In this document: piece after piece, positions 1-51,336 of the stretch | How the letters are laid out: each line of letters starts with the position of its first letter | Numbering within the stretch: position 1 is the stretch's first letter | Source: Candidatus Doudnabacteria bacterium | GTDB taxonomy: Bacteria > Patescibacteriota > Doudnabacteria > UBA920 > O2-02-FULL-48-8 | Length of the DNA stretch: 64,000 bases | Direction of reading: 5' to 3' | Assembly: GCA_016186915.1 (NCBI GenBank) | Contig: JACPKU010000006.1 | Coordinates: forward strand, 249,619-313,618 | Position numbers and translations under genes: made by a program | Notes under the pieces: model-generated | Databases searched by the model: none | Seen by the model: the letters and a program-made list of their open reading frames with translations, nothing else | Told to the model about the DNA's origin: nothing

Positions 1-28
1 CATTCATACACGACTGTATGAATGTATT
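1..28. repeat. 28-bp perfect palindrome, copy 1, abutting the alr stop codon
   Basis: Seen in the sequence. Confidence 0.9.
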
Positions 29-1202
29 ATTTAACTAATACTCTTGGCACGGTGGGATTGATACGCGTGACAATCTCATAATTAATCGTGCCGGCGATTA
101 CGGCTAATTCATCCGCGAAAATTTCTTCACGGCCTTGTTTGCCTAAAAGCACGGCTTCACTCCCCGCTTTGGCATTTTTGACCTTGGTGACATCCGCGCT
201 TAATAAATTCATATAAACGCGCCCTCGCACTTTGCATCGTTTACCGTCGATCAACACTTCTGCCAAATTGGAAAATTTTCTGTCATAGCCCTCATAATAA
301 CCTACAGGCAAGATCGCTAATTTAGTCGGTTTGGGCGCTCTATAATTCCTGCCGTAACCAACTTACGCCCCTTTGGGAATTTCTTTGACTGCTAACACTT
401 TGGCTTTCCATGTCAATGCTGGCTGCAAATTAAATCCGGGATTGGCTTTCTGAATCAAGGAATGAATCGATTTATAAGATTGCAAGCCGTAAAGACCAAT
501 GCCGATTCTTACTAAATCGAAATGACTTTCAGGCACGGACAGCGCAGACGCGGTGCAAGCAATATGCTTAACCGGAATAAAAATCAAATTTTGTTCCAAG
601 GCTTCGATAATGCTTCGGAAATGATTGAGCTGAATGACCGTAAAAGCCGGATCGTCTTCCGAAGAAGCAAAATGACTAAATATACCTTCTATTTCCAGTT
701 GTGAAAATTTGCTGACCTGCTTCACAAATCCCACGGCGTCTTTCGCGTACACGCCCAAACGGGATAATCCCGTGCCGACTTTGATATGCACTTTGGCCTT
801 TTTCTTGAGCTTGCTGGCTGTTTCTGCAATCAACTTGGCCTGTTTGAGATCATAAACCACTAAGGCAATATGGCGCTCAATCAAAGACTTAACTTGATCT
901 GCCCTGTAGTAATTTAAAACCAAGATCGGCTTCTTAATCCCAAATTGTCGCAGCGTCAACGCTTCCGTGCCATTGGCCGTGCCGAACGAATCCACGTAAT
1001 CTTCCAAAGTCGAGCTAACTGCGAACGCGCCGTGGCCATAGGCATTGCTTTTCACCACTGCCATCAAAGAAACCCGCCCACTCTTGGTGGGCGAGGCTCG
1101 TCCCAACTTCGTTGGGGCGGCAATCAACACTTTCCGTAACTGCTTCGCGTTATGAATCAGCGCTGATTTAGAAATTTCAACCCAAGAGAGCGATGCATTC
1201 AT
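27..1202 (-). pseudogene. alr: alanine racemase with one in-frame TAA (363-365); otherwise a full-length homolog
   Basis: The N-terminal ORF 363..1202 carries the PLP motif AVVKSNAYGHG. The C-terminal ORF 27..311 is in the same frame (VGYG...ILPVGYYEGYDRK...GRVYMNLLSADVT...INYEI). The frame is open between 311 and 363 except for the TAA at 363-365. Confidence 0.75.
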
Positions 1203-5604: not shown

Positions 5605-5741
5605 AATTCCTGATGCATATTACTTGGCTTTAATTATACCATAAATCTTCAGTATCACCAAAAAAACGAGATAATATTAATATAAAAGATAATAATATGT
5701 GGCGCTATTGATGTTGATGTTAGTTGATGTTATTTTAGAAT

Positions 5742-5768
5742 ACAATTATCCCGATCGGGATTTTTATA
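5742..5768. repeat. 27-bp direct repeat DR-A1 (ACAATTATCCCGATCGGGATTTTTATA) with 14-bp perfect palindrome core ATCCCGATCGGGAT
   Basis: Identical copy at 6357-6383; lies 6 nt downstream of the stop of gene 5775..6353. Confidence 0.9.
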
Positions 5769-5774
5769 ATCGGA

Positions 5775-6353
5775 CTAAACCTTTCTGAGGTTAAATTTTT
5801 CTAATAAATCCTTTTGAATATCAATGTTTTCAGCTATAATCATTCTGACAAATGATCTGACTTCATAAATCTCCTTTAAGAAATCGAGCTCGTCTTCGCA
5901 GGGATAAGGGTACACCCAAACACTCTTTTGAATGGAGGTGAATCCAAGTTCTTTCAGCTTACCTCTAAAAAATTTTCTTGCTGCGCTAAATTTCTCTGGA
6001 ACGTCAAAAATAACCACCCTCCACTTACCATCCCATCGCCTTGGCTTACTTATCACCATTTCATCTAAATTATAACTTAAAAGTCTTTGATGACCATTTT
6101 TTGTTACCTCAACTATTGTTTTTCCCGCATGATTGGACACAGAGATCAGATTCTGCTTTTCAAGATTTCGGAAAGATTGTTCAATTTGCCGGCGATTATA
6201 TTTCTTGAGTCTCTGAAATTCAAATTTACCTAAGCCAAGTTCTTCTGAAAAAATCATTACGCCTAAGGGGCCAGCAACCGGAATAGCTAACATCCCGGCC
6301 GTTGCCACTATTTTTAATATCGTCTTGGCGATTTCTGACCTTTTGGCCTTCAT
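5775..6353 (-). CDS. protein with hydrophobic N-terminus, winged-helix-like middle and Cas2/VapD-like C-terminal domain (paralog A)
   Basis: N-terminal hydrophobic helix ILKIVATAGMLAIPVAGPLGVMIF. C-terminal KWRVVIFDVPEK...GKLKELGFTSIQKSVWVYPY fits the Cas2 beta1-Asp pattern and the R..L...G..vQ.SVF pattern. About 45% identical to ORF 13662..14228. Confidence 0.55.
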   Translation of the reverse strand: MKAKRSEIAKTILKIVATAGMLAIPVAGPLGVMIFSEELGLGKFEFQRLKKYNRRQIEQSFRNLEKQNLISVSNHAGKTIVEVTKNGHQRLLSYNLDEMVISKPRRWDGKWRVVIFDVPEKFSAARKFFRGKLKELGFTSIQKSVWVYPYPCEDELDFLKEIYEVRSFVRMIIAENIDIQKDLLEKFNLRKV

Positions 6354-6356
6354 ATT

Positions 6357-6383
6357 ACAATTATCCCGATCGGGATTTTTATA
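6357..6383. repeat. 27-bp direct repeat DR-A2, identical to DR-A1
   Basis: Lies 3 nt upstream of the ATG of gene 5775..6353. On the minus strand it reads TATAAAAATCCCGATCGGGATAATTGT aat ATG. Confidence 0.9.
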
Positions 6384-13661: not shown

Positions 13662-14228
13662 TCAAAGCTCAAATAACCTAACTAAGTCCTTTTGAATATC
13701 AATCTTTTGCACTGTCAATATTCTAATATAGGATCTCACTTCATAAAGCTCACCGATAAAATCAACTTCATCTTCACAGGAATAGGGATAAATCCAAACA
13801 CTTTTCTGCAATTTATAAAACCCTAGCTCTTTTAGTTTATTACGCAGACACTCCCTCCCCATCTTATATTTTTCGGGAATATCAAAAATTACCACACGCC
13901 ATTTACGATCCCATTTCCAGGGCTTTTTGATTCGCATGTCTTCAAGTTTGTATTTCAATACTTTATTTTGTCCGTTCTTTGTAAGTCCTACCACGGTTGT
14001 GTCACCATTTTGTGATACGCCAATCAATCTTTGCTTCTCTATTCTCCTTAAAGAATCATAGACCTTCCGTCTGCCCACTCTTGGGAGACCAAGTTCGTCG
14101 GCAATCACCATAAATGTCAATGGCCCTGCAACAGGAATTGCCAACACTCCGGCTGCGGCGAGAGTTAGCAAGACGGTTTTAGTGATCTTTAGTCTTCGTT
14201 TTGTTTTTTCAGTGTTCAATTTCTTCAT
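13662..14228 (-). CDS. protein with hydrophobic N-terminus, winged-helix-like middle and Cas2/VapD-like C-terminal domain (paralog B)
   Basis: Same architecture as 5775..6353. WRVVIFDIPEKY...NKLKELGFYKLQKSVWIYPYSCEDEVDF. Confidence 0.55.
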   Translation of the reverse strand: MKKLNTEKTKRRLKITKTVLLTLAAAGVLAIPVAGPLTFMVIADELGLPRVGRRKVYDSLRRIEKQRLIGVSQNGDTTVVGLTKNGQNKVLKYKLEDMRIKKPWKWDRKWRVVIFDIPEKYKMGRECLRNKLKELGFYKLQKSVWIYPYSCEDEVDFIGELYEVRSYIRILTVQKIDIQKDLVRLFEL

Positions 14229-24446: not shown

Positions 24447-24476
24447 ACGTAAAATGCGCGGCCGCGCATTTTACGT
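24447..24476. terminator. 30-bp perfect palindrome ACGTAAAATGCGCGGCCGCGCATTTTACGT between convergent genes
   Basis: Seen in the sequence; a likely bidirectional terminator for ORF 23189 (+) and rnhA (-). Confidence 0.55.
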
Positions 24477-35483: not shown

Positions 35484-35768
35484 TTATTCCCATTTACCCC
35501 ACTCGCCAGTGATTAATTTTTTTTTCTTCTTTCTCGTCCAACCTTTTAATTGTTTTTCACGTAAACTTGCCTCTTCAAAACTTTCATATTCTTCTAAATA
35601 AACTAGTCGCTTTGGTTTGTGCTGTTTTGTATATTCTCCCCCTAAACCAGATATATGCTGGATCCATCTCTGATCAGGCTTCCAAGTTCTGCCAACATAA
35701 TAAGACTTGTCTTCGCATTCTATTATATACACATACCATTTCCACTTCATACGAAATGCCTTCGACAA
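35484..35768 (-). CDS. GIY-YIG nuclease-domain protein (UPF0213-like)
   Basis: YVYIIECEDKSYYVGRT; 94 aa. Confidence 0.7.
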   Translation of the reverse strand: MSKAFRMKWKWYVYIIECEDKSYYVGRTWKPDQRWIQHISGLGGEYTKQHKPKRLVYLEEYESFEEASLREKQLKGWTRKKKKKLITGEWGKWE

Positions 35769-35990: not shown

Positions 35991-36740
35991 TTAATCTATA
36001 AATTTGAAAGTAGAAAGGATTCGGTTAATTACTTTAATATCACTATCGTTAATATCGGCGCTTATAGGGATTTGCAAACCAACTGGCGGGTACTCCTGGA
36101 CATTTTCGGTTCTTGCCTGAGCATAAAGGACACCTGAACTCGTCCATGAAGATGAAACATCATCGAATTTAATTCGATACAAGAATACTTTGCCTTCTCG
36201 GGTGGCAAATTCCTTACCATCAGTGCCAGTTCCTAATACACGAAGTGGCGGAACCTCTGCGCCTTTTGGCAGGACAAATACTTTTCCTTCCTGACCAGAA
36301 AACTCGAACACAGGATCAACCCCGCCTGAAAGTGAAGTTTTAACATTCCATCCGGCCGGATATTTTAACTCAAACCCATATTCTTCATTGCGGTAGGTTT
36401 GCCAGTTGGCAGTCTCGTCAACTTCGTCCGGCTCAATCACTTCCCAACCTTCCGGCACATCGCACGGGGTGGGGAATTCTTTTACTTCGCCAGTTTGAGG
36501 GTTGCGAGCCGGGGTAACCACCTGAATGCAGACCCCTGACATATTATTCTTATTATCCTTATCAGACCTATTATCCCTATCGTTCCTATTTTCAATCCAA
36601 TACACACCAGCCACAACCACGGCAAAGATCAACACTAAAAACACATAACCCCATATTCTATGTCTGCTAAGCCAGCTCGGCTGAGGTTCTGGTTCTTGTT
36701 GGTGATTTGTGGAGTTAAACGAATTTATATTATTTTCCAT
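35991..36740 (-). CDS. secreted/membrane-anchored protein with WxTYxNEEYGF...ILSTFKF domain (paralog 2)
   Basis: N-terminal TM. NWQTYRNEEYGFELKYPAGW ... ILSTFKFID. The start is at 36740, or at 36761 inside the palindrome. Confidence 0.55.
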   Translation of the reverse strand: MENNINSFNSTNHQQEPEPQPSWLSRHRIWGYVFLVLIFAVVVAGVYWIENRNDRDNRSDKDNKNNMSGVCIQVVTPARNPQTGEVKEFPTPCDVPEGWEVIEPDEVDETANWQTYRNEEYGFELKYPAGWNVKTSLSGGVDPVFEFSGQEGKVFVLPKGAEVPPLRVLGTGTDGKEFATREGKVFLYRIKFDDVSSSWTSSGVLYAQARTENVQEYPPVGLQIPISADINDSDIKVINRILSTFKFID

Positions 36741-36754
36741 ATCCCTTTTCTCCA

Positions 36755-36782
36755 CATTCATACACGACTGTATGAATGTATT
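36755..36782. repeat. 28-bp perfect palindrome CATTCATACA-CGAC-TGTATGAATG(TATT), copy 2
   Basis: Identical copies at 1-28, 37283-37310 and 49569-49595. Its last T plus the next A form the stop codon of the YerC-like gene. Confidence 0.9.
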
Positions 36783-37272
36783 AACCTTCTAAGGTTCTTT
36801 TTGCAGAACGTTGTTTCAGTTTCTTTCTGATAAAACGGTTTGCCGCTGGAACTCCTTCGGTGACTAAATTTGCCAAAAATGTTTCGGCCGGAGCTTTTCG
36901 GCGCACCCTTCTTTCTAAAATTGCTTGTCTTTCTTCGCGCTTCCCTTGGTATTTATGTTCCAGATCTTGTAACTTAGAGTGTACCTTTCTCAATCCATCG
37001 CCATGAATCACGAGAATATTACTGACATTATTAATAGTTCTGGAAGTAACCCTCAAAGCATTTATTATTTCTTCATAGGTTTGACCTTGAAGTAGTCGTC
37101 GCGCAATTTCTAATCTTTTAGCGAACATTTTGTATTCCGTATGTGTAAACAAATCTTTAAACAGCAACCTGATATCCTCCTTAGAATCCATCAGAGTAAA
37201 TGCGGCCCATAAATTGTTCACATAGTGACCAAAATGCTCGGGATCTAAATGTAGTCTTGAAAGTTTTGTCAT
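36781..37272 (-). CDS. YerC/YecD (TrpR-like) family HTH protein with basic C-terminal tail
   Basis: LFTHTEYKMFAKRLEIARRLLQGQTYEEIINALRVTSRTINNVSNILVIHGDG matches the YerC pattern. Likely start is MTKLS. Confidence 0.6.
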   Translation of the reverse strand: MTKLSRLHLDPEHFGHYVNNLWAAFTLMDSKEDIRLLFKDLFTHTEYKMFAKRLEIARRLLQGQTYEEIINALRVTSRTINNVSNILVIHGDGLRKVHSKLQDLEHKYQGKREERQAILERRVRRKAPAETFLANLVTEGVPAANRFIRKKLKQRSAKRTLEG

Positions 37273-37282
37273 TTTTTTTTCA

Positions 37283-37310
37283 CATTCATACACGACTGTA
37301 TGAATGTATT
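37283..37310. repeat. 28-bp perfect palindrome, copy 3, about 10 nt upstream of the YerC-like start
   Basis: Seen in the sequence. Confidence 0.9.
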
Positions 37311-37323
37311 GTATCAATAAACT

Positions 37324-38289
37324 TTACGACTTCACAAGGTTTGGCGGGGTTTGGCCTTTCAGCGCAGCGTTAATATTCTCTGCCGCCACGCGGCTCATAT
37401 TATCTCTGGTTTCAATGGTGGCGGAAGCAGTGTGCGGCGTGATGACAATGTTTTCAAGCTCTGCCAGACCCGGAGTGAGTTCTGGCTCGTGCTCCCAAAC
37501 ATCGATGCCAGCGCCGAATATATCCTGCTTCTGCAAGGCTTCCAGCAAGGCTTGTTCATCCACCACTGGACCGCGTGATGTGTTGATTAAAACAGCGGTT
37601 TTTTTCATCAGCTCGAATTGCGGCGTGGAAATCAAATGTTTAGTTTCTGGAGTCAACGGGACGTGAACGGATATAAAATCTGAAGTCTTGAGCAACTCCT
37701 CCATGCTCACGGCCCTCGCCCCTATCTCTTGATCCAAATCTTTATTTACACTGTCACGATCATAATAAACCACCTTCATCCCAAATCCTTTGCTTGCTCG
37801 CCGAGCTAAAGTGGAGCCGATTTTTCCAAGACCAATAATACCCAATGTTTTCTCGCTCACATCCTGACCCAAAAGCAGAAACGGCTGCCAGCCTTGATAC
37901 TTCCCCGCTCTAGAAAATCGGTCTGATTCTACGATCCGCCGCCCCACAGCGAGTATCAGACCAAATGCATGATCAGCCACCGAACCAGTCAGAATGTCCG
38001 GGGTATTGGTCACTAATACATTGCGAACTTGGGCGTCCTTAATATTGATATTATCAAAACCCACAGCATAGTTAGCCACGATCTTAAGCTGTTTGCCGGC
38101 CGCATCCAATATTTCACCATCAATCTGGTCCACCAGCTGCGACAATATGCCGTCTGCGCCAGCGACCGCGTCTTTCAACTCTTCCCGACTTAAGGGTCGA
38201 TCAAGAGGCGAGACTTCCACTTCGTGTCCGGCTTTTTCCAAAACATCAATTCCGATTTGGGGAATTTTACGGGTAACGTATATTTTCAA
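37324..38289 (-). CDS. D-isomer-specific 2-hydroxyacid dehydrogenase (glycerate/hydroxypyruvate reductase-like)
   Basis: GxGxxG NAD-binding motif (GIIGLGKIG); 321 aa. Confidence 0.8.
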   Translation of the reverse strand: MKIYVTRKIPQIGIDVLEKAGHEVEVSPLDRPLSREELKDAVAGADGILSQLVDQIDGEILDAAGKQLKIVANYAVGFDNINIKDAQVRNVLVTNTPDILTGSVADHAFGLILAVGRRIVESDRFSRAGKYQGWQPFLLLGQDVSEKTLGIIGLGKIGSTLARRASKGFGMKVVYYDRDSVNKDLDQEIGARAVSMEELLKTSDFISVHVPLTPETKHLISTPQFELMKKTAVLINTSRGPVVDEQALLEALQKQDIFGAGIDVWEHEPELTPGLAELENIVITPHTASATIETRDNMSRVAAENINAALKGQTPPNLVKS

Positions 38290-48665: not shown

Positions 48666-49042
48666 TTTTTTTCCAACATTAAACATGCAGAATTAATGCA
48701 ATATCGTTTGCCGCCTCGCTCCTGCGGGCCGTCGTCAAACACATGGCCCAAATGCGAGCCACAGTTTTTGCAAACCACTTCAGTGCGACGCACGCCATGA
48801 TCATTATCTTCCCGAAGCTCCACATGCTCCAGGTTGGCCGGTTCAGTAAAAGACGGCCAACCAGTACCGGAATCAAACTTGGCGTCAGAAGAAAACAATT
48901 CCTGTCCGCAAGCAGCGCATTTGTACATCCCCTTATCTTTGGTGTTTACATACTTGCCTGAAAACGGCGCTTCTGTGCCTTTCTTGCGCATTATATGATA
49001 CTGTTCAGGGGTCAATTTTTCCTTCAATTCCTCATCTGTCAT
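48662..49042 (-). CDS. msrB: peptide-methionine (R)-S-oxide reductase
   Basis: Two CxxC pairs plus the catalytic RYCINSA. Confidence 0.9.
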   Translation of the reverse strand: MTDEELKEKLTPEQYHIMRKKGTEAPFSGKYVNTKDKGMYKCAACGQELFSSDAKFDSGTGWPSFTEPANLEHVELREDNDHGVRRTEVVCKNCGSHLGHVFDDGPQERGGKRYCINSACLMLEKK

Positions 49043-49096
49043 ACTCGCATTATATCAAAAAACACCTTTGTTTCCAAAGATGCTCACGTATAAACA

Positions 49097-49125
49097 TTGA
49101 CAATTAAACCGTTTCAACCTATGCT
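49097..49125 (+). promoter_or_regulatory. promoter TTGACA-N17-TATGCT for ORF 49176
   Basis: Seen in the sequence. Confidence 0.5.
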
Positions 49126-49175
49126 GGTGGCGAAGTAATTCCGCTTCTCCAAACAACCCTTAGGAGGATCTGATC

Positions 49176-49397
49176 ATGGGCAAGGGAAGATTTGCGGAAG
49201 AGATCGAGCACAAGCCGTCATCGCCCGGCCAAGAAATGGTGGATCTCGTGCTCACCTGCGGCATCTCGGCCCTCGCCGGATCTCAGGATACGGTCGAATG
49301 CCGCATCACGGACCACGAGCTTGGCAAGACCTACACCGGCACGGGGAGCACGGAGTCCGAGGCCCGCGATGACGCGCTCGGCAAACTGAATCGCTGA
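49176..49397 (+). CDS. GC-rich 73-aa hypothetical protein with RBS AGGAGG and a terminator
   Basis: About 60% GC. The AGGAGGATCTGATCATG translation-initiation region resembles the AGGAGGATCTCATG of ORF 62309. Terminator GAGTGAG...CTCACTC-T8 at 49420-49457. Confidence 0.5.
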   Translation: MGKGRFAEEIEHKPSSPGQEMVDLVLTCGISALAGSQDTVECRITDHELGKTYTGTGSTESEARDDALGKLNR

Positions 49398-49568
49398 CCG
49401 ACGGGTGGTCTTCGGCGGTGAGTGAGGTTCTGACAAAGAATCTCACTCATTTTTTTTAAAATATATCTCCTTACAACCCCCAGCGAGGGTTTTGGTTTAC
49501 CCGCCGGACTTTCGGGTGCCGATCATTCGACCGGACAAGTGTCTCGAAACGAGACTCGGACTTACATA

Positions 49569-49595
49569 CATTCATACACGACTGTATGAATGTAT
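49569..49595. repeat. 28-bp palindrome, copy 4 (27/28), intergenic
   Basis: Seen in the sequence; about 60 bp upstream of the -35 of ORF 49690. Confidence 0.9.
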
Positions 49596-49654
49596 GGCAA
49601 ATCCCAACCCCCATATTTGCAGGCAACACAAGCAACAATACACAATACTTCTTT

Positions 49655-49683
49655 TTGACAAAATTGTCAATGCAAAGTAAAAA
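49655..49683 (+). promoter_or_regulatory. promoter TTGACA-N17-TAAAAA(T) ending about 6 nt before the ATG (leaderless-type)
   Basis: Seen in the sequence. Confidence 0.4.
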
Positions 49684-49689
49684 TTAATC

Positions 49690-49881
49690 ATGCTCAATAA
49701 CGAGGATATCCAAAAATTATCTGCGGTGTTAGCCACAAAGGAAGACTTGAAGGATTTTTATACAAAGTCCGATATGGATGAAAGATTTGGCTCATTGCAG
49801 ACTGCTATTGACGGCTTGGCGAAACTGGTCACAGATTTTCGTAATGAACATGTCATCATTCATAAACGCCTGAAGTTTTAG
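49690..49881 (+). CDS. 63-aa helical hypothetical protein, apparently leaderless
   Basis: Promoter abuts the ATG. A terminator hairpin at 49947-49975 is shared with secY. Confidence 0.4.
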   Translation: MLNNEDIQKLSAVLATKEDLKDFYTKSDMDERFGSLQTAIDGLAKLVTDFRNEHVIIHKRLKF

Positions 49882-49946
49882 AAGATTGGGCAAAACAAGT
49901 ATCAAAAAATTGGGTATCTCTTTGCCGTTTTAATATTTAAATATAA

Positions 49947-49975
49947 AACACCCGGCAGTTCGCTGGGTGTTTTAT
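49947..49975. terminator. bidirectional intrinsic terminator AACACCCGGCAG-TTCG-CTGGGTGTT with flanking A-run and T-run
   Basis: Lies between the convergent ORF 49690 (+) and secY (-). Confidence 0.6.
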
Positions 49976-49998
49976 ATATATCATCCACAAACGATCAG

Positions 49999-51336
49999 CT
50001 AAAAGTCTTCGTAGTCGCGCATCACCATCTGGCTCTGCACCTGCTTCATCACTTCAATCACCACGGCCACAGCTATCAAAATCCCAGTACCGCCCAAGGT
50101 CAAAGCCTGGGTTTGGGTAAATCCTTGGATGATAAACGGCAAAACCGCAATTAGCCCCAAGAATATCGCGCCGGCCAAGGTTATTCGATTTAAAACCTTG
50201 TAAAGAAACTCGGCAGTCTGTCGCCCTGGGCGCAAGCCCGGTATAAACCCGCCCTGCTTTTGGATGTTGTCGGATATTTCATCCGGGTTGAATACAATCG
50301 CTGTGTAAAAATAAGTAAAAGCCACGACCAAGAGAAAATAAATAATCCCATAATAAGTCTGGTTTTGAAAAAAATTATTTACGGCACTGGCAATATTGGC
50401 AACCACTTCGGTTTTGGCACTGGAGAAAAAATTGGCGATCAGGCCCGGAAACAGCAGAATTGAAATAGCGAAAATGATTGGGATCACGCCGGCTTGATTA
50501 ACGCGCAAGGGCAGATGCGTACTCACCCCGCCATAGAGTTTGTTCCCCCTGACTCTTTTGGCGTAAGACACCGGGATGTTTCTCTGCGCTTCAGTGATCA
50601 TCACTATCCCAGCCACCACCAGCAAGGCTACGGCCATAAAAGACGCGGCAGTAACCAGCCCGGAAGTCGAAATCCCACCAGTCGCCGTGGTAATAGTAGA
50701 GAACCCTTGTTGCACAGCCGCGGGCAATTGCGCCACGATTCCCGCAAAAATGATCAAAGAAATTCCGTTGCCAAGCTTATATTCGCTGATCGTCTCTCCA
50801 ATCCACATCAGCAAAGCGGTTCCGGCAGTTACGGAAAGCAGGGCCACGAACCATTGGAAGCCGGTGAATCCGGAAATCACGGTTGCTCCGCTGCTGCGTG
50901 AGAGCAAAACGATTGTCCCGTAAGCCTGCAGAGCGGTCAGCGGCACAGTGAGCAGTCGTGTGTACTGGTTTATTTTCGCGCGTCCCGCATCCCCGCCTTC
51001 CTTAGCCAGCTCTCCCAGACTAGGAATGATGATGGTCAATAACTGCATAATAATCGAAGCGGTAATATACGGGCCGACTCCAAGCATGGCCACAGAAAAA
51101 TTGCTCAAGCCTCCTCCTGAAAATATATTAAATAGGCCAAACAACTGGTTTGAGTTAAAAAGATTTTGGAGGCTTGAAAGATCAACTCCGGGAATCGGGA
51201 CGTGAGCCAAAATCCTGGTCACCACTAAAAGCATGGCCACAATCAAGATGTTATGGCGCAGTTCCTTAACTTTCCAGATTTGAGAAATTCTCGACATAAG
51301 TATGTGATCCGAATCTACGAATATTATGCTAATCAA
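49999..51336 (-). CDS. secY: preprotein translocase SecY
   Basis: 10 TM helices; 445 aa. Confidence 0.9.
   Translation of the reverse strand: MISIIFVDSDHILMSRISQIWKVKELRHNILIVAMLLVVTRILAHVPIPGVDLSSLQNLFNSNQLFGLFNIFSGGGLSNFSVAMLGVGPYITASIIMQLLTIIIPSLGELAKEGGDAGRAKINQYTRLLTVPLTALQAYGTIVLLSRSSGATVISGFTGFQWFVALLSVTAGTALLMWIGETISEYKLGNGISLIIFAGIVAQLPAAVQQGFSTITTATGGISTSGLVTAASFMAVALLVVAGIVMITEAQRNIPVSYAKRVRGNKLYGGVSTHLPLRVNQAGVIPIIFAISILLFPGLIANFFSSAKTEVVANIASAVNNFFQNQTYYGIIYFLLVVAFTYFYTAIVFNPDEISDNIQKQGGFIPGLRPGRQTAEFLYKVLNRITLAGAIFLGLIAVLPFIIQGFTQTQALTLGGTGILIAVAVVIEVMKQVQSQMVMRDYEDF

What the first reader, a model, noticed from the sequence alone, without database searches (positions are those of the whole stretch)
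36755..37310. YerC/TrpR-like HTH gene bracketed by a perfect 28-bp palindrome that is also dispersed as solo copies
CATTCATACA-CGAC-TGTATGAATG(TATT) is present four times (1-28, 36755-36782, 37283-37310, 49569-49595) with identity over 27 bp. Two copies flank a YerC/YecD-family HTH gene: one about 10 nt before its start and one overlapping its stop, which also overlaps the start of the next gene (a secreted-domain paralog). A third copy abuts the stop of alr. A 10-bp inverted half-site with a 4-bp spacer is what a dimeric HTH repressor binds. The arrangement suggests an autoregulated regulator with a small regulon, or a palindrome-flanked miniature insertion module that has left solo copies. 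Copies 1 and 2 each end ...GTATT followed by A, supplying the TAA stop of the upstream gene in the same way.
Basis: partly seen in the sequence, partly recalled or inferred. Interest (0 to 1): 0.7.

Follow-up and report, generated by a model that had tools for sequence, protein, structure and literature searches.

The report
TrpR-like repressor bracketed by its operators
A small DNA-binding regulator gene in an uncultured ultra-small bacterium (Candidatus Doudnabacteria) lies between two copies of a perfect 28-bp palindrome that is very probably its own binding site; in relatives the protein's DNA-reading residues and the palindrome change together, which gives a first readable regulator-to-site code for this group.

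Summary
A perfect palindrome (core CATTCATACA-CGAC-TGTATGAATG, best read as 11-6-11, YACATTCATAC-ACGACT-GTATGAATGTR) occurs four times in the window, with none expected by chance. Genes here are on the minus strand. One copy abuts a sigma-70-like promoter 10 nt upstream of a 163-aa TrpR/YerC(HisR)-family gene. One abuts that gene's stop codon, 14 nt before the next gene. One follows alr at the contig end. One lies in a leader region between secY and msrB.

All 14 related cassettes examined, from different Doudnabacteria lineages, carry the same bracket. The arm sequence comes in six types. These covary one-to-one with two residues at the start of the recognition helix (S77/R78 here, equivalent to TrpR I79/A80), and a blind prediction for one protein was correct.

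Solo copies lie next to housekeeping and lipoprotein genes. One is conserved in frame inside prmC.

Best explanation: a cognate operator for an autoregulated repressor with a small regulon. The operator-gene-operator cassette also relocates between genomic slots. An unrelated PaaX-like regulator in the same window has the same bracket.

Novelty: a new variant of a known kind.

The parts
37281..37308 (.). Upstream operator copy (28 bp, CACATTCATAC-ACGACT-GTATGAATGTA on the + strand). It ends 10 nt before the ATG of the regulator gene and overlaps the last base of the predicted -10.
37308..37337 (-). Predicted sigma-70-type promoter of the regulator gene: TTGTGA, 18 nt, TACAAT, with TG one base before the -10 (TGATACAAT).
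   Evidence: The same layout (TTGnnn, 17 nt, TATAAT, A, palindrome) is seen in L002 and L003.
36781..37272 (-). TrpR/YerC(HisR)-family regulator gene, 163 aa. Residues ~18-97 form the TrpR-like domain, with recognition-helix start S77-R78-T79-I80. Residues 95-163 form two long helices found only in this family.
36753..36780 (.). Downstream operator copy. It abuts the regulator's TAA stop (36781-36783) and lies 14 nt before the probable start (36740) of the next gene.
35991..36740 (-). PsbP_2-like membrane-anchored or secreted protein, candidate regulon member. Paralogues of this family carry solo copies of the palindrome in another genome (L010).
1..26 (.). Solo copy immediately after the alr stop codon (TAA|TACATTCATAC in the gene's sense). 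It is truncated by 2 nt at the contig start, so the gene beyond it is unknown.
49567..49594 (.). Solo copy with the longest symmetry (14-bp arms). It lies about 40 nt downstream of the predicted start of a minus-strand transcript heading towards msrB-adk. It sits inside a ~1.3-kb segment that is absent between secY and adk in the syntenic locus L040.
49642..49670 (-). Predicted promoter (TTGACA, 17 nt, TATTGT) that would transcribe through copy 4. Its -35 is half of a palindromic double -35 shared with a divergent plus-strand promoter.

Best explanation
The palindrome is the cognate DNA operator of the TrpR/YerC(HisR)-family protein encoded between two of its copies.

Inferred mechanism: the protein binds the two-fold symmetric 28-bp site YAC-N5-TAC / N6 / GTA-N5-GTR, presumably as a dimer, possibly joined into a higher oligomer by its family-specific C-terminal helices. 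The first two residues of the recognition helix (S77/R78 here) read the variable 5-bp block in each arm.

The upstream copy starts at the last base of the gene's -10 element and covers roughly +1 to +25, so a bound protein would shut off its own promoter (negative autoregulation). The downstream copy, which touches the stop codon, and the solo copies would place neighbouring genes under the same control, either by promoter occlusion or as a roadblock. This gives a regulon of a few sites per genome.

Because the identical 26-34-bp sites are dispersed, the operator-gene-operator unit can also be excised and re-inserted by recombination at these sites. That would explain why it sits in different slots in different genomes.

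Shown: the repeats, the universal bracket, the covariation, the fold and the promoter-like context. Inferred: binding itself, repression, oligomeric state, ligand and relocation mechanism.
For: 1. Four perfect copies, none expected by chance.
2. The protein passes the Pfam Trp_repressor cut-off. Its model superposes on YerC/HisR-type structures 3FRW, 3KOR and 3G1C (TM 0.78-0.88, rmsd 1.2-2.1 A) and on E. coli TrpR. The B. subtilis yerC product is HisR, a histidine-dependent repressor with palindromic operators that is often autoregulated (PMC9413887).
3. The 24-bp core, including its centre, is identical in species whose proteins are only 55-78% identical.
4. All 14 family members examined are bracketed by two near-identical 11-6-11 palindromes 511-574 bp apart. 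The downstream copy lies 0-4 nt, in one case 9 nt (L002), after the stop codon.
5. Arm type covaries with the residues aligned to DNA-contacting TrpR I79/A80: [A/S]R = ATTCA (5 lineages), [A/S]N = YATCA (3), EH = TGCAA (2), [D/E][R/K]P = TTGCT (2), ER = TTGCA (1), AT = L040 type (1). P0100 (N; TATCA) is closer overall to P0020 (R; ATTCA) than P0020 is to the window protein, so the pattern is not just phylogeny. The prediction that the S-N protein P0092 would carry a YATCA site was made before look-up and held.
6. Two paralogues in one MAG carry different types, each flanked by its own.
7. A promoter was predicted by the scan tool directly against the upstream copy. A -10-like nnnAAT sits 1 nt before the core on the gene-proximal side in 12 of 22 sites, against 2 of 22 on the mirror side.
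8. Solo sites are kept at orthologous places in different species: upstream of rplA (L008/L023), and in the prmC loop in three orthologues 42-46% identical with third codon positions preserved.
9. Copy number is low: 3 exact sites on a 949-kb contig, 3 on 634 kb.
Against: - No binding or expression data exist.
- The asymmetric centre (AGTCGT) is as conserved as the arms, which a symmetric dimer does not obviously require.
- Three solo copies lie in frame inside coding regions (prmC, a GT-C glycosyltransferase, a TagA-like gene), where a classical operator is unexpected.
- Several copies lie after 3' ends with no nearby downstream start (L038, L049 downstream copy).
- The genes next to solo sites share no obvious pathway: purN/purH, rplA, pgk, fba, PsbP_2-like lipoproteins, msrB.
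- Why the downstream copy is universal is not explained by autoregulation alone.
- The 949-kb contig CAVYGQ01 has three exact solo sites but no exact site next to a family gene in the DNA I could fetch, so co-occurrence is unproven there.
- Promoter-like elements I saw by eye in L046 and L050 were not reported by the scan tool.
Confidence: 0.6

Rival explanations
1. Mobile palindrome system. The palindromes are ends, recombination sites or footprints of a small mobile cassette, comparable to REP sequences around a RAYT gene or to Xer-dependent dif modules with an 11-6-11 core. The HTH protein would serve the element (site recognition or control) rather than host gene regulation. Solo copies would be landing pads or excision scars.
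For: - The palindrome-gene-palindrome unit sits in different slots of one syntenic block, and the empty slots have abutting genes.
- The same slot (Bac_transf / GT4-MurG cluster) holds cassettes of different types in different genomes.
- In-frame intragenic copies exist.
- Flanks beyond the arms are palindromic more often than chance, with varying sequence (L038 +7, L039 +5, L005 +5, L027 +4).
- The centre is flipped at orthologous sites (L005 vs L015; L008 vs L023).
- The 11-6-11 layout with an asymmetric, copy-identical centre is what tyrosine-recombinase core sites look like (my own knowledge).
- Two independent assemblies break at a copy.
Against: - The protein has only a Trp_repressor domain and no HUH, tyrosine-recombinase, serine-recombinase or DDE domain. 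The C-terminal module matches nothing outside the family.
- There are only a few copies per genome.
- Solo sites are conserved at orthologous positions over deep divergence, so they behave as selected sites, not decaying scars.
- Several types coexist in one genome, each matching its own paralogue's recognition helix. That would require as many recombinase specificities.
- An unrelated PaaX-like regulator shows the same bracket, which points to a regulatory layout.
Confidence: 0.15
2. RNA-level element. The palindrome acts as a transcribed hairpin (about -12 to -14 kcal/mol) that stabilises, processes or terminates mRNAs, flanking the regulator's mRNA on both sides, independently of the protein.
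For: - Stable hairpin: z about -5 against shuffles.
- Perfect arm complementarity is kept by compensatory changes between types and even between the two copies in L045.
- Variable flanks are often complementary.
- Some imperfect copies have G-T rather than other mismatches (L011, L042, L049).
Against: - The loop orientation relative to the transcribed strand is mixed (about 21 GTCG: 11 CGAC by my count) and is flipped at orthologous sites.
- No U-tract follows, and the scan found no terminator-like site there.
- The predicted transcription start of the regulator gene falls inside the left arm, so that mRNA would not contain the whole hairpin.
- There is no Rfam match.
- An RNA role does not explain covariation with HTH contact residues.
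Confidence: 0.08
3. Chromosome-organising sites. A few highly conserved palindromes, some inside genes and some next to the binding protein's own gene, are bridged by a protein with a C-terminal coiled-coil-like module, in the manner of ParB/parS or MatP/matS, rather than acting as transcription operators.
For: - Low copy number, extreme conservation, and tolerance of intragenic positions.
- Two long C-terminal helices could mediate bridging.
- There are four copies within 64 kb in this window.
Against: - The family is TrpR/HisR-like, whose characterised members are ligand-dependent repressors.
- Promoter abutment and a preferred position 10-17 nt before start codons.
- Several specificity types per genome, each flanking its own gene, is not how known centromere-like systems look (my own knowledge).
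Confidence: 0.07

Closest known systems
HisR (B. subtilis YerC and orthologues), TrpR-family histidine repressor (PMC9413887)
   Same: Closest sequence and structure relatives: 3FRW, 3G1C, 3KOR. Palindromic operator, frequent site upstream of its own gene, and the same conserved Tyr, Thr and Ile positions in the HTH.
   Different: - 163 aa against about 100 aa, with a family-specific two-helix C-terminal module.
- Below the NCBIfam YerC/YecD cut-off.
- Operator is 28 bp (11-6-11, YACnnnnnTAC), not the 20-bp cacTTTAnnnnnnTAAAgtg.
- No his genes are nearby.
- The recognition-helix positions that are T-A in HisR are hypervariable here.
- A second site always follows the stop codon.
E. coli TrpR and its trp/aroH/trpR operators
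   Same: Same fold (TM about 0.65 normalised to TrpR). Autoregulated. Symmetric operator read by residues at the start of helix E (I79, A80, T81, T83, R84 according to PMC9413887).
   Different: No sequence-level match (TIGR01321 20 bits against a cut-off of 67). Different operator sequence and length. Ligand unknown.
CIRCE / HrcA
   Same: A perfect inverted repeat that stays invariant across distant species, present in very few copies per genome, between promoter and start codon (my own knowledge).
   Different: CIRCE is 9-N9-9 with a non-conserved spacer. It is bound by HrcA, an unrelated protein, and has a single specificity throughout bacteria. Here the specificity has diversified into at least six types.
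Lambdoid phage immunity regions (OL - repressor gene - OR)
   Same: A repressor gene lying between two sets of its own operators. Repressor and operators covary as an exchangeable module that occupies the same slot in different genomes (my own knowledge).
   Different: There is no phage context here. Single sites rather than triple operators. Different protein family. The flanking genes are housekeeping genes.
REP sequences and RAYT genes
   Same: A single-copy gene flanked on both sides by its cognate short palindromes, further copies dispersed in the genome, and the palindrome sequence covarying with the gene's lineage (my own knowledge).
   Different: RAYTs are HUH-Y1 transposase homologues, and REPs number tens to hundreds per genome and are mostly extragenic. 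Here the protein is an HTH repressor homologue with no catalytic domain, and there are only a few copies.

Membership tests
TrpR superfamily (Pfam PF01371 Trp_repressor) | Score at or above the Pfam gathering threshold | tested here: met
   38.3 bits against a cut-off of 27, residues 21-97. All 120 listed homologues carry PF01371.
TrpR superfamily | TrpR-like all-helical fold with the helix-turn-helix | tested here: met
   AlphaFold2 model pLDDT 82.8. Foldseek to 3FRW, 3KOR and 3G1C gave TM (target) 0.78-0.88 and rmsd 1.2-2.1 A; TrpR entries gave 0.62-0.69.
YerC/YecD family (NCBIfam TIGR02531) | Score at or above the curated cut-off | tested here: not met
   37.6 bits against a cut-off of 42.2: a divergent relative, not an equivalog.
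HisR (histidine repressor) | 20-bp operator consensus cacTTTAnnnnnnTAAAgtg (Firmicutes) or TGTAnTArnnnnyTnTTACA (Proteobacteria) | tested here: not met
   The site here is YACATTCATAC-AGTCGT-GTATGAATGTR, 28 bp. Consensus taken from PMC9413887.
HisR (histidine repressor) | Sites upstream of his biosynthesis or histidine transport genes | tested here: not met
   Neighbours are the gene itself, PsbP_2-like genes, purN, purH, rplA, pgk, fba, msrB and others. No his gene lies next to any of about 31 sites.
HisR (histidine repressor) | Histidine-dependent DNA binding | not testable with these tools
   Needs purified protein.
HisR / TrpR type regulators | Candidate site at its own promoter (autoregulation) | tested here: met
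   Promoter TTGTGA-18-TACAAT abuts the upstream copy. All 14 family genes have an upstream copy.
TrpR (trp operon repressor, TIGR01321) | Score at or above the curated cut-off | tested here: not met
   20.1 bits against a cut-off of 67.25.
REP / RAYT system | The flanked gene encodes an HUH-Y1 transposase homologue | tested here: not met
   Only Trp_repressor was found in Pfam and NCBIfam. The fold search gave only TrpR-like hits.
REP / RAYT system | The gene is flanked by its cognate palindromes, which covary with the gene's lineage | tested here: met
   14 of 14 cassettes, six types.
REP / RAYT system | Tens to hundreds of dispersed copies per genome | tested here: not met
   1-6 exact copies per MAG; 3 on a 949-kb contig. 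Near-exact copies could not be counted genome-wide.
Xer/dif-type recombination site or dif module | 11-bp arms around a 6-bp asymmetric centre | tested here: met
   The layout fits. This is resemblance only.
Xer/dif-type recombination site or dif module | Recombination by a tyrosine recombinase at the site | not tested
   No recombinase gene was looked for genome-wide, and no population data were available.
Intrinsic transcription terminator | G+C-rich hairpin followed by a U-tract | tested here: not met
   No terminator-like site in 36600-37450. The stem is A+T-rich and no T-run follows in the sense direction.
Any described RNA family (Rfam 15) | Match at gathering score | tested here: not met
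   No match in the whole window. Only chance-level hits near copy 4.

The most novel reading that the evidence does not exclude
In these streamlined bacteria, regulators travel as self-contained operator-gene-operator cassettes. The cassette is excised and re-inserted by recombination at its own binding sites, so it moves between solo sites, and solo sites can even persist in frame inside genes. Meanwhile two recognition-helix residues and the operator arms diversify together into mutually insulated specificities. The same layout in an unrelated PaaX-like regulator would make this a general way in which Patescibacteria acquire, move and rewire transcriptional control.
Probability: 0.25. Interest if true: 0.8.

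Novelty: new variant of a known kind. Interest (0 to 1): 0.6.

Why it matters
- Almost nothing is known about transcriptional regulation in Patescibacteria (the candidate phyla radiation). A full-text search found no paper linking TrpR-family proteins to this group.
- This gives a concrete, testable regulator-operator pair with an explicit specificity table: two residues against a 5-bp block, at least six types.
- It also gives a candidate small regulon touching purine synthesis, glycolysis, a ribosomal protein gene (rplA, with another copy just after rplT) and surface lipoproteins.
- It shows an unusual, fully conserved layout in which the regulator gene is enclosed by its own sites and moves as a unit.
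- The specificity table could be used directly to predict regulons in hundreds of uncultured genomes, and to design orthogonal repressor-operator pairs.

Tried and rejected
- Rfam at gathering score on the whole window, and at E <= 1 around copy 4: nothing credible. tRNA/tmRNA scan: none.
- Recovering the DNA left of window position 1 through serS-carrying contigs: all are short, and one ends at the same base as the window.
- A conserved RNA downstream of solo copies that are followed by G+C-rich stretches (window copy 4, L006, L009, L012, L020, L033): no shared sequence by BLAST.
- The C-terminal 69 residues searched against 1.84 billion representatives: only this family, 5 clusters. The fold search gave nothing for that part.
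- Promoters embedded in the operators of L046 and L050, seen by eye (TTGCAG or TTGCAT, 17 nt, TATAAT), were not reported by the scan tool because the -35 has only 3 of 6 matches. I do not rely on them.
- 'Saccharibacteria' and 'Actinomycetota' hits. The former have Doudnabacteria-like genes (GAPDH 64-66%, FAD oxidase 64-83% identical), so the element is not shown outside that lineage. The Actinomycetota hit and three metagenome hits have other centres and unrelated flanks, and the number of such hits fits chance.
- A terminator role was rejected.
- A catalytic (transposase or recombinase) role for the protein was rejected on domain and fold grounds.

Full report
**The observation**

The 24-bp core CATTCATACA-CGAC-TGTATGAATG occurs exactly four times in the window (1, 36755, 37283, 49569). 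No further copy appears at up to three mismatches, and none appeared in 100 shuffles. Identity extends by one base on the left and three on the right.

All genes involved are on the minus strand:
- The copy at 37283 is upstream of a 163-aa gene (36781-37272) that passes the Pfam Trp_repressor threshold. It ends 10 nt before the ATG.
- The copy at 36755 abuts that gene's TAA. It lies 14 nt before the probable start of the next gene, a PsbP_2-like membrane-anchored protein. That start is set at 36740 by comparison with the L002 orthologue.
- The copy at position 1 follows the alr stop.
- The copy at 49569 lies between secY and msrB.

The window comes from a Candidatus Doudnabacteria MAG (HYW51_02935, 420-kb contig). 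Position 1 is a contig end: an independent assembly stops at the same base. Assemblers break at this repeat, and the left neighbour of copy 1 cannot be recovered.

**The element elsewhere**

Exact-arm scans of 185,579 species genomes and of JGI metagenomes returned 15 and 21 stretches. One genome hit and three metagenome hits have different centres and unrelated flanks, a number compatible with chance. All other hits carry the same centre, CGAC or its complement. Hits labelled Saccharibacteria have Doudnabacteria-like genes.

Copy number is low: three exact sites on a 949-kb contig, three on 634 kb of another MAG. Pairs about 530-550 bp apart enclose an orthologue of the regulator gene in every case where the gene is present (L002, L003, L005, L011). 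Those proteins are only 55-78% identical to each other, yet the palindrome is unchanged.

**The bracket is universal and the site covaries with the protein**

The family has 264 detectable members, nearly all 163-165 aa. I fetched nine further members on their contigs. All 14 cassettes in hand have two near-identical repeats 511-574 bp apart. The downstream copy lies 0-4 nt, in one case 9 nt (L002), after the stop codon.

Every repeat fits one architecture: 11-bp arms, a 6-bp asymmetric centre, YAC at arm positions 1-3, TAC at positions 9-11, and a variable 5-bp block between them. There are six block types.

Profile alignment to the HisR structures, together with the contact list in PMC9413887, places the family's two hypervariable residues at the positions of TrpR I79/A80, at the start of the recognition helix. 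In the window protein these are S77 and R78. They track the block type without exception:

| Residues | Arm block | Lineages |
|---|---|---|
| [A/S]R | ATTCA | 5 |
| [A/S]N | YATCA | 3 |
| EH | TGCAA | 2 |
| [D/E][R/K]P | TTGCT | 2 |
| ER | TTGCA | 1 |
| AT | divergent L040 site | 1 |

The pattern is not simply phylogeny. P0100 (N; TATCA) is 65% identical to P0020 (R; ATTCA), while P0020 is 63% identical to the window protein and P0081 only 55-57% identical to the other ATTCA-type proteins.

After listing the residue pairs across the family, I predicted that the S-N protein P0092 would carry a YATCA site. It does. Two paralogues in one MAG (HYV13, HY336) carry different types, each flanked by its own. 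I take this as strong computational evidence that the protein reads the palindrome.

**The protein**

The AlphaFold2 model (pLDDT 82.8) has a TrpR-like N-terminal domain. It superposes on the YerC/HisR-type structures 3FRW, 3KOR and 3G1C (TM 0.78-0.88 normalised to the target), and less well on E. coli TrpR.

Two long helices follow (92-119 and 128-158). These have no structural match and occur only in this family: 5 representative clusters among 1.84 billion. The protein falls below the NCBIfam YerC/YecD cut-off. It is therefore a divergent, lineage-restricted branch of the TrpR/HisR family. The characterised members of that family are ligand-dependent repressors with palindromic operators and are often autoregulated.

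**Position relative to expression signals**

The scan tool predicts TTGTGA-18-TACAAT, preceded by TG, on the minus strand, ending at 37308. The -10 overlaps the first base of the upstream copy. L002 and L003 have TTGnnn-17-TATAAT in the same register.

Over 22 sites with an assignable downstream gene, the hexamer one base before the core ends in AAT in 12 cases on the gene-proximal side and in 2 on the mirror side. The core then ends 9-26 nt before the start codon for the regulator gene, PsbP_2-like genes (window, L002, three in L010), purN, purH, pgk and others. Copy 4 lies about 40 nt downstream of the predicted start of a TTGACA-17-TATTGT promoter pointing towards msrB-adk. No terminator-like feature is present.

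This fits a repressor site covering the transcription start, or acting as a roadblock.

**Features that a plain operator model does not predict**

1. The cassette moves. The window and L040 are syntenic over about 20 kb (ribosomal proteins, secY, adk, map, htrA, ruvX, galT, tpiA, rpiB, rpe, tkt, pfkB, 2-hydroxyacid dehydrogenase, PsbP_2). The cassette sits between rpiB and rpe in L040, and between the dehydrogenase and PsbP_2 in the window. The empty slots have abutting or overlapping genes. Elsewhere the cassette lies between purF and purN, after ligA, in a glycolysis cluster, or in a cell-wall glycosyltransferase cluster. That last slot holds different types in different genomes.
2. Three solo copies are in frame inside genes. 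The prmC case is informative. Three orthologues only 42-46% identical carry the copy in the same loop and orientation: perfect in L032, one mismatch in L047, three in L048. Third codon positions are preserved. Closer orthologues lack it. So the DNA sequence, not the peptide, is under selection there.
3. The asymmetric centre is invariant within the ATTCA type. Its orientation relative to the neighbouring gene is mixed (about 21:11) and is flipped at orthologous sites.
4. Flanks beyond the arms are complementary more often than chance, with differing sequences.

Points 1, 3 and 4 suggest recombination or gene conversion among copies. A 26-34-bp identity is near the minimum for homologous recombination (my own knowledge). 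Excision between the two direct copies followed by re-insertion at a solo copy would automatically regenerate the bracket.

**A second family with the same layout**

A PaaX_M-domain regulator gene in the window (5775-6353, minus strand) is flanked by TATAAAAATCCCGATCGGGATAATTGTA on both sides. The upstream copy sits between a TATAAT and the ATG. Its relatives in L040 and L043 are flanked by different palindromes (ATGCCATGGCAT, GACGATCGTC). The operator-gene-operator arrangement is thus a general habit of these genomes. That favours a regulatory or insulating explanation over a specialised transposition role for the TrpR-like protein.

**Verdict**

The palindrome is best explained as the cognate operator of an autoregulated TrpR/HisR-family repressor with a small regulon. 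My estimate for binding is about 0.85, and for the regulatory model as a whole about 0.6.

Rivals kept:
- a mobile cassette in the manner of REP/RAYT or dif modules (0.15);
- an RNA hairpin (0.08);
- chromosome-organising sites (0.07).

One caveat remains open. I could not check whether CAVYGQ01, which has three solo sites, encodes a matching family member.

It is a new variant of a known kind. The family and the principle (palindromic operator, autoregulation) are known. The 28-bp 11-6-11 site, the C-terminal module, the obligatory bracket, the specificity diversification and the intragenic copies are not described in the literature I could search.

Noticed in passing
window 5741-5768 and 6356-6383, flanking the gene at 5775-6353 (-); also L040 14285-14836 and L043 3120-3641: An unrelated PaaX_M-domain regulator gene is bracketed in the same way by TATAAAAATCCCGATCGGGATAATTGTA, with the upstream copy between a TATAAT and the ATG. 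Relatives carry other palindromes (ATGCCATGGCAT, GACGATCGTC). The second window paralogue (13665-14204) has AGCGATCGC on both sides.
   Followed up: partly
window 27-1202 (-), alr: alr is interrupted by an in-frame stop (..IPKGA*VGYGRN..). A near-identical Logan contig (L018) reads Tyr there and encodes an intact 391-aa alanine racemase. This is either a pseudogene in this population or a consensus error in the MAG.
   Followed up: partly
window 1 (contig start) and L018 end: Two independent assemblies end at exactly the last base of the palindrome, so the repeat breaks assemblies and other copies may sit at contig ends unseen.
   Followed up: yes
window 49042-50000: Relative to the syntenic L040, about 1.3 kb is inserted between secY and adk. 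It holds msrB, a G+C-rich plus-strand 73-aa ORF (49176-49397) with an AGGAGG ribosome-binding site and a strong terminator (49417-49451), a G+C-rich hairpin-rich stretch (49460-49566), palindrome copy 4, and a 63-aa plus-strand ORF (49690-49881).
   Followed up: partly
window 49655-49670: TTGACAAAATTGTCAA is a palindromic pair of -35 hexamers serving two predicted divergent promoters: plus strand towards the 63-aa ORF, minus strand towards copy 4 and msrB.
   Followed up: partly
L032 383-1351 (-), prmC; also L047 and L048: Besides the in-frame palindrome (IHTRLYEC), this prmC carries a second, G+C-rich in-frame insert (..HHKPPHPGPLPQGEREGKAVDD..) that orthologues lack. In-frame palindromic inserts may be common in these genomes.
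   Followed up: no
L010 6524-6551 and L041 4893-4920: Solo palindromes of other types lie upstream of secreted-protein genes: CACTATAATAC-AATCTT-GTATGATAGTG before a fourth PsbP_2-like gene, and CACTATGATAC-TATGGA-GTATCATAGTG before a Peptidase_M73-like gene. Regulons of different paralogues therefore seem to share the same kinds of target.
   Followed up: no
L044 1658-2802: Three copies in a row enclose first a SET-domain gene and then the regulator gene (palindrome - SET - palindrome - regulator - palindrome).
   Followed up: no
L038 6419-6458: Here the palindrome is nested in a longer perfect palindrome (AAACCGCA...TGCGGTTT) just after rplT, followed by a T-rich stretch, as if inserted into the loop of a terminator hairpin.
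   Followed up: no
window 24447-24476: A 30-bp perfect palindrome, ACGTAAAATGCGCGG|CCGCGCATTTTACGT, of unknown meaning.
   Followed up: no
window 35484-35768 (-) and L040, L043, L045: Small stand-alone GIY-YIG domain genes recur at varying positions in these syntenic regions.
   Followed up: no
family-wide (P0001-P0120): The two recognition-helix positions show at least 24 different residue pairs among 120 family members (SR, AR, PN, AN, SN, EH, ER, SG, QG, EK, SH, DR ...). Many more operator types than the six seen here are therefore likely.
   Followed up: partly
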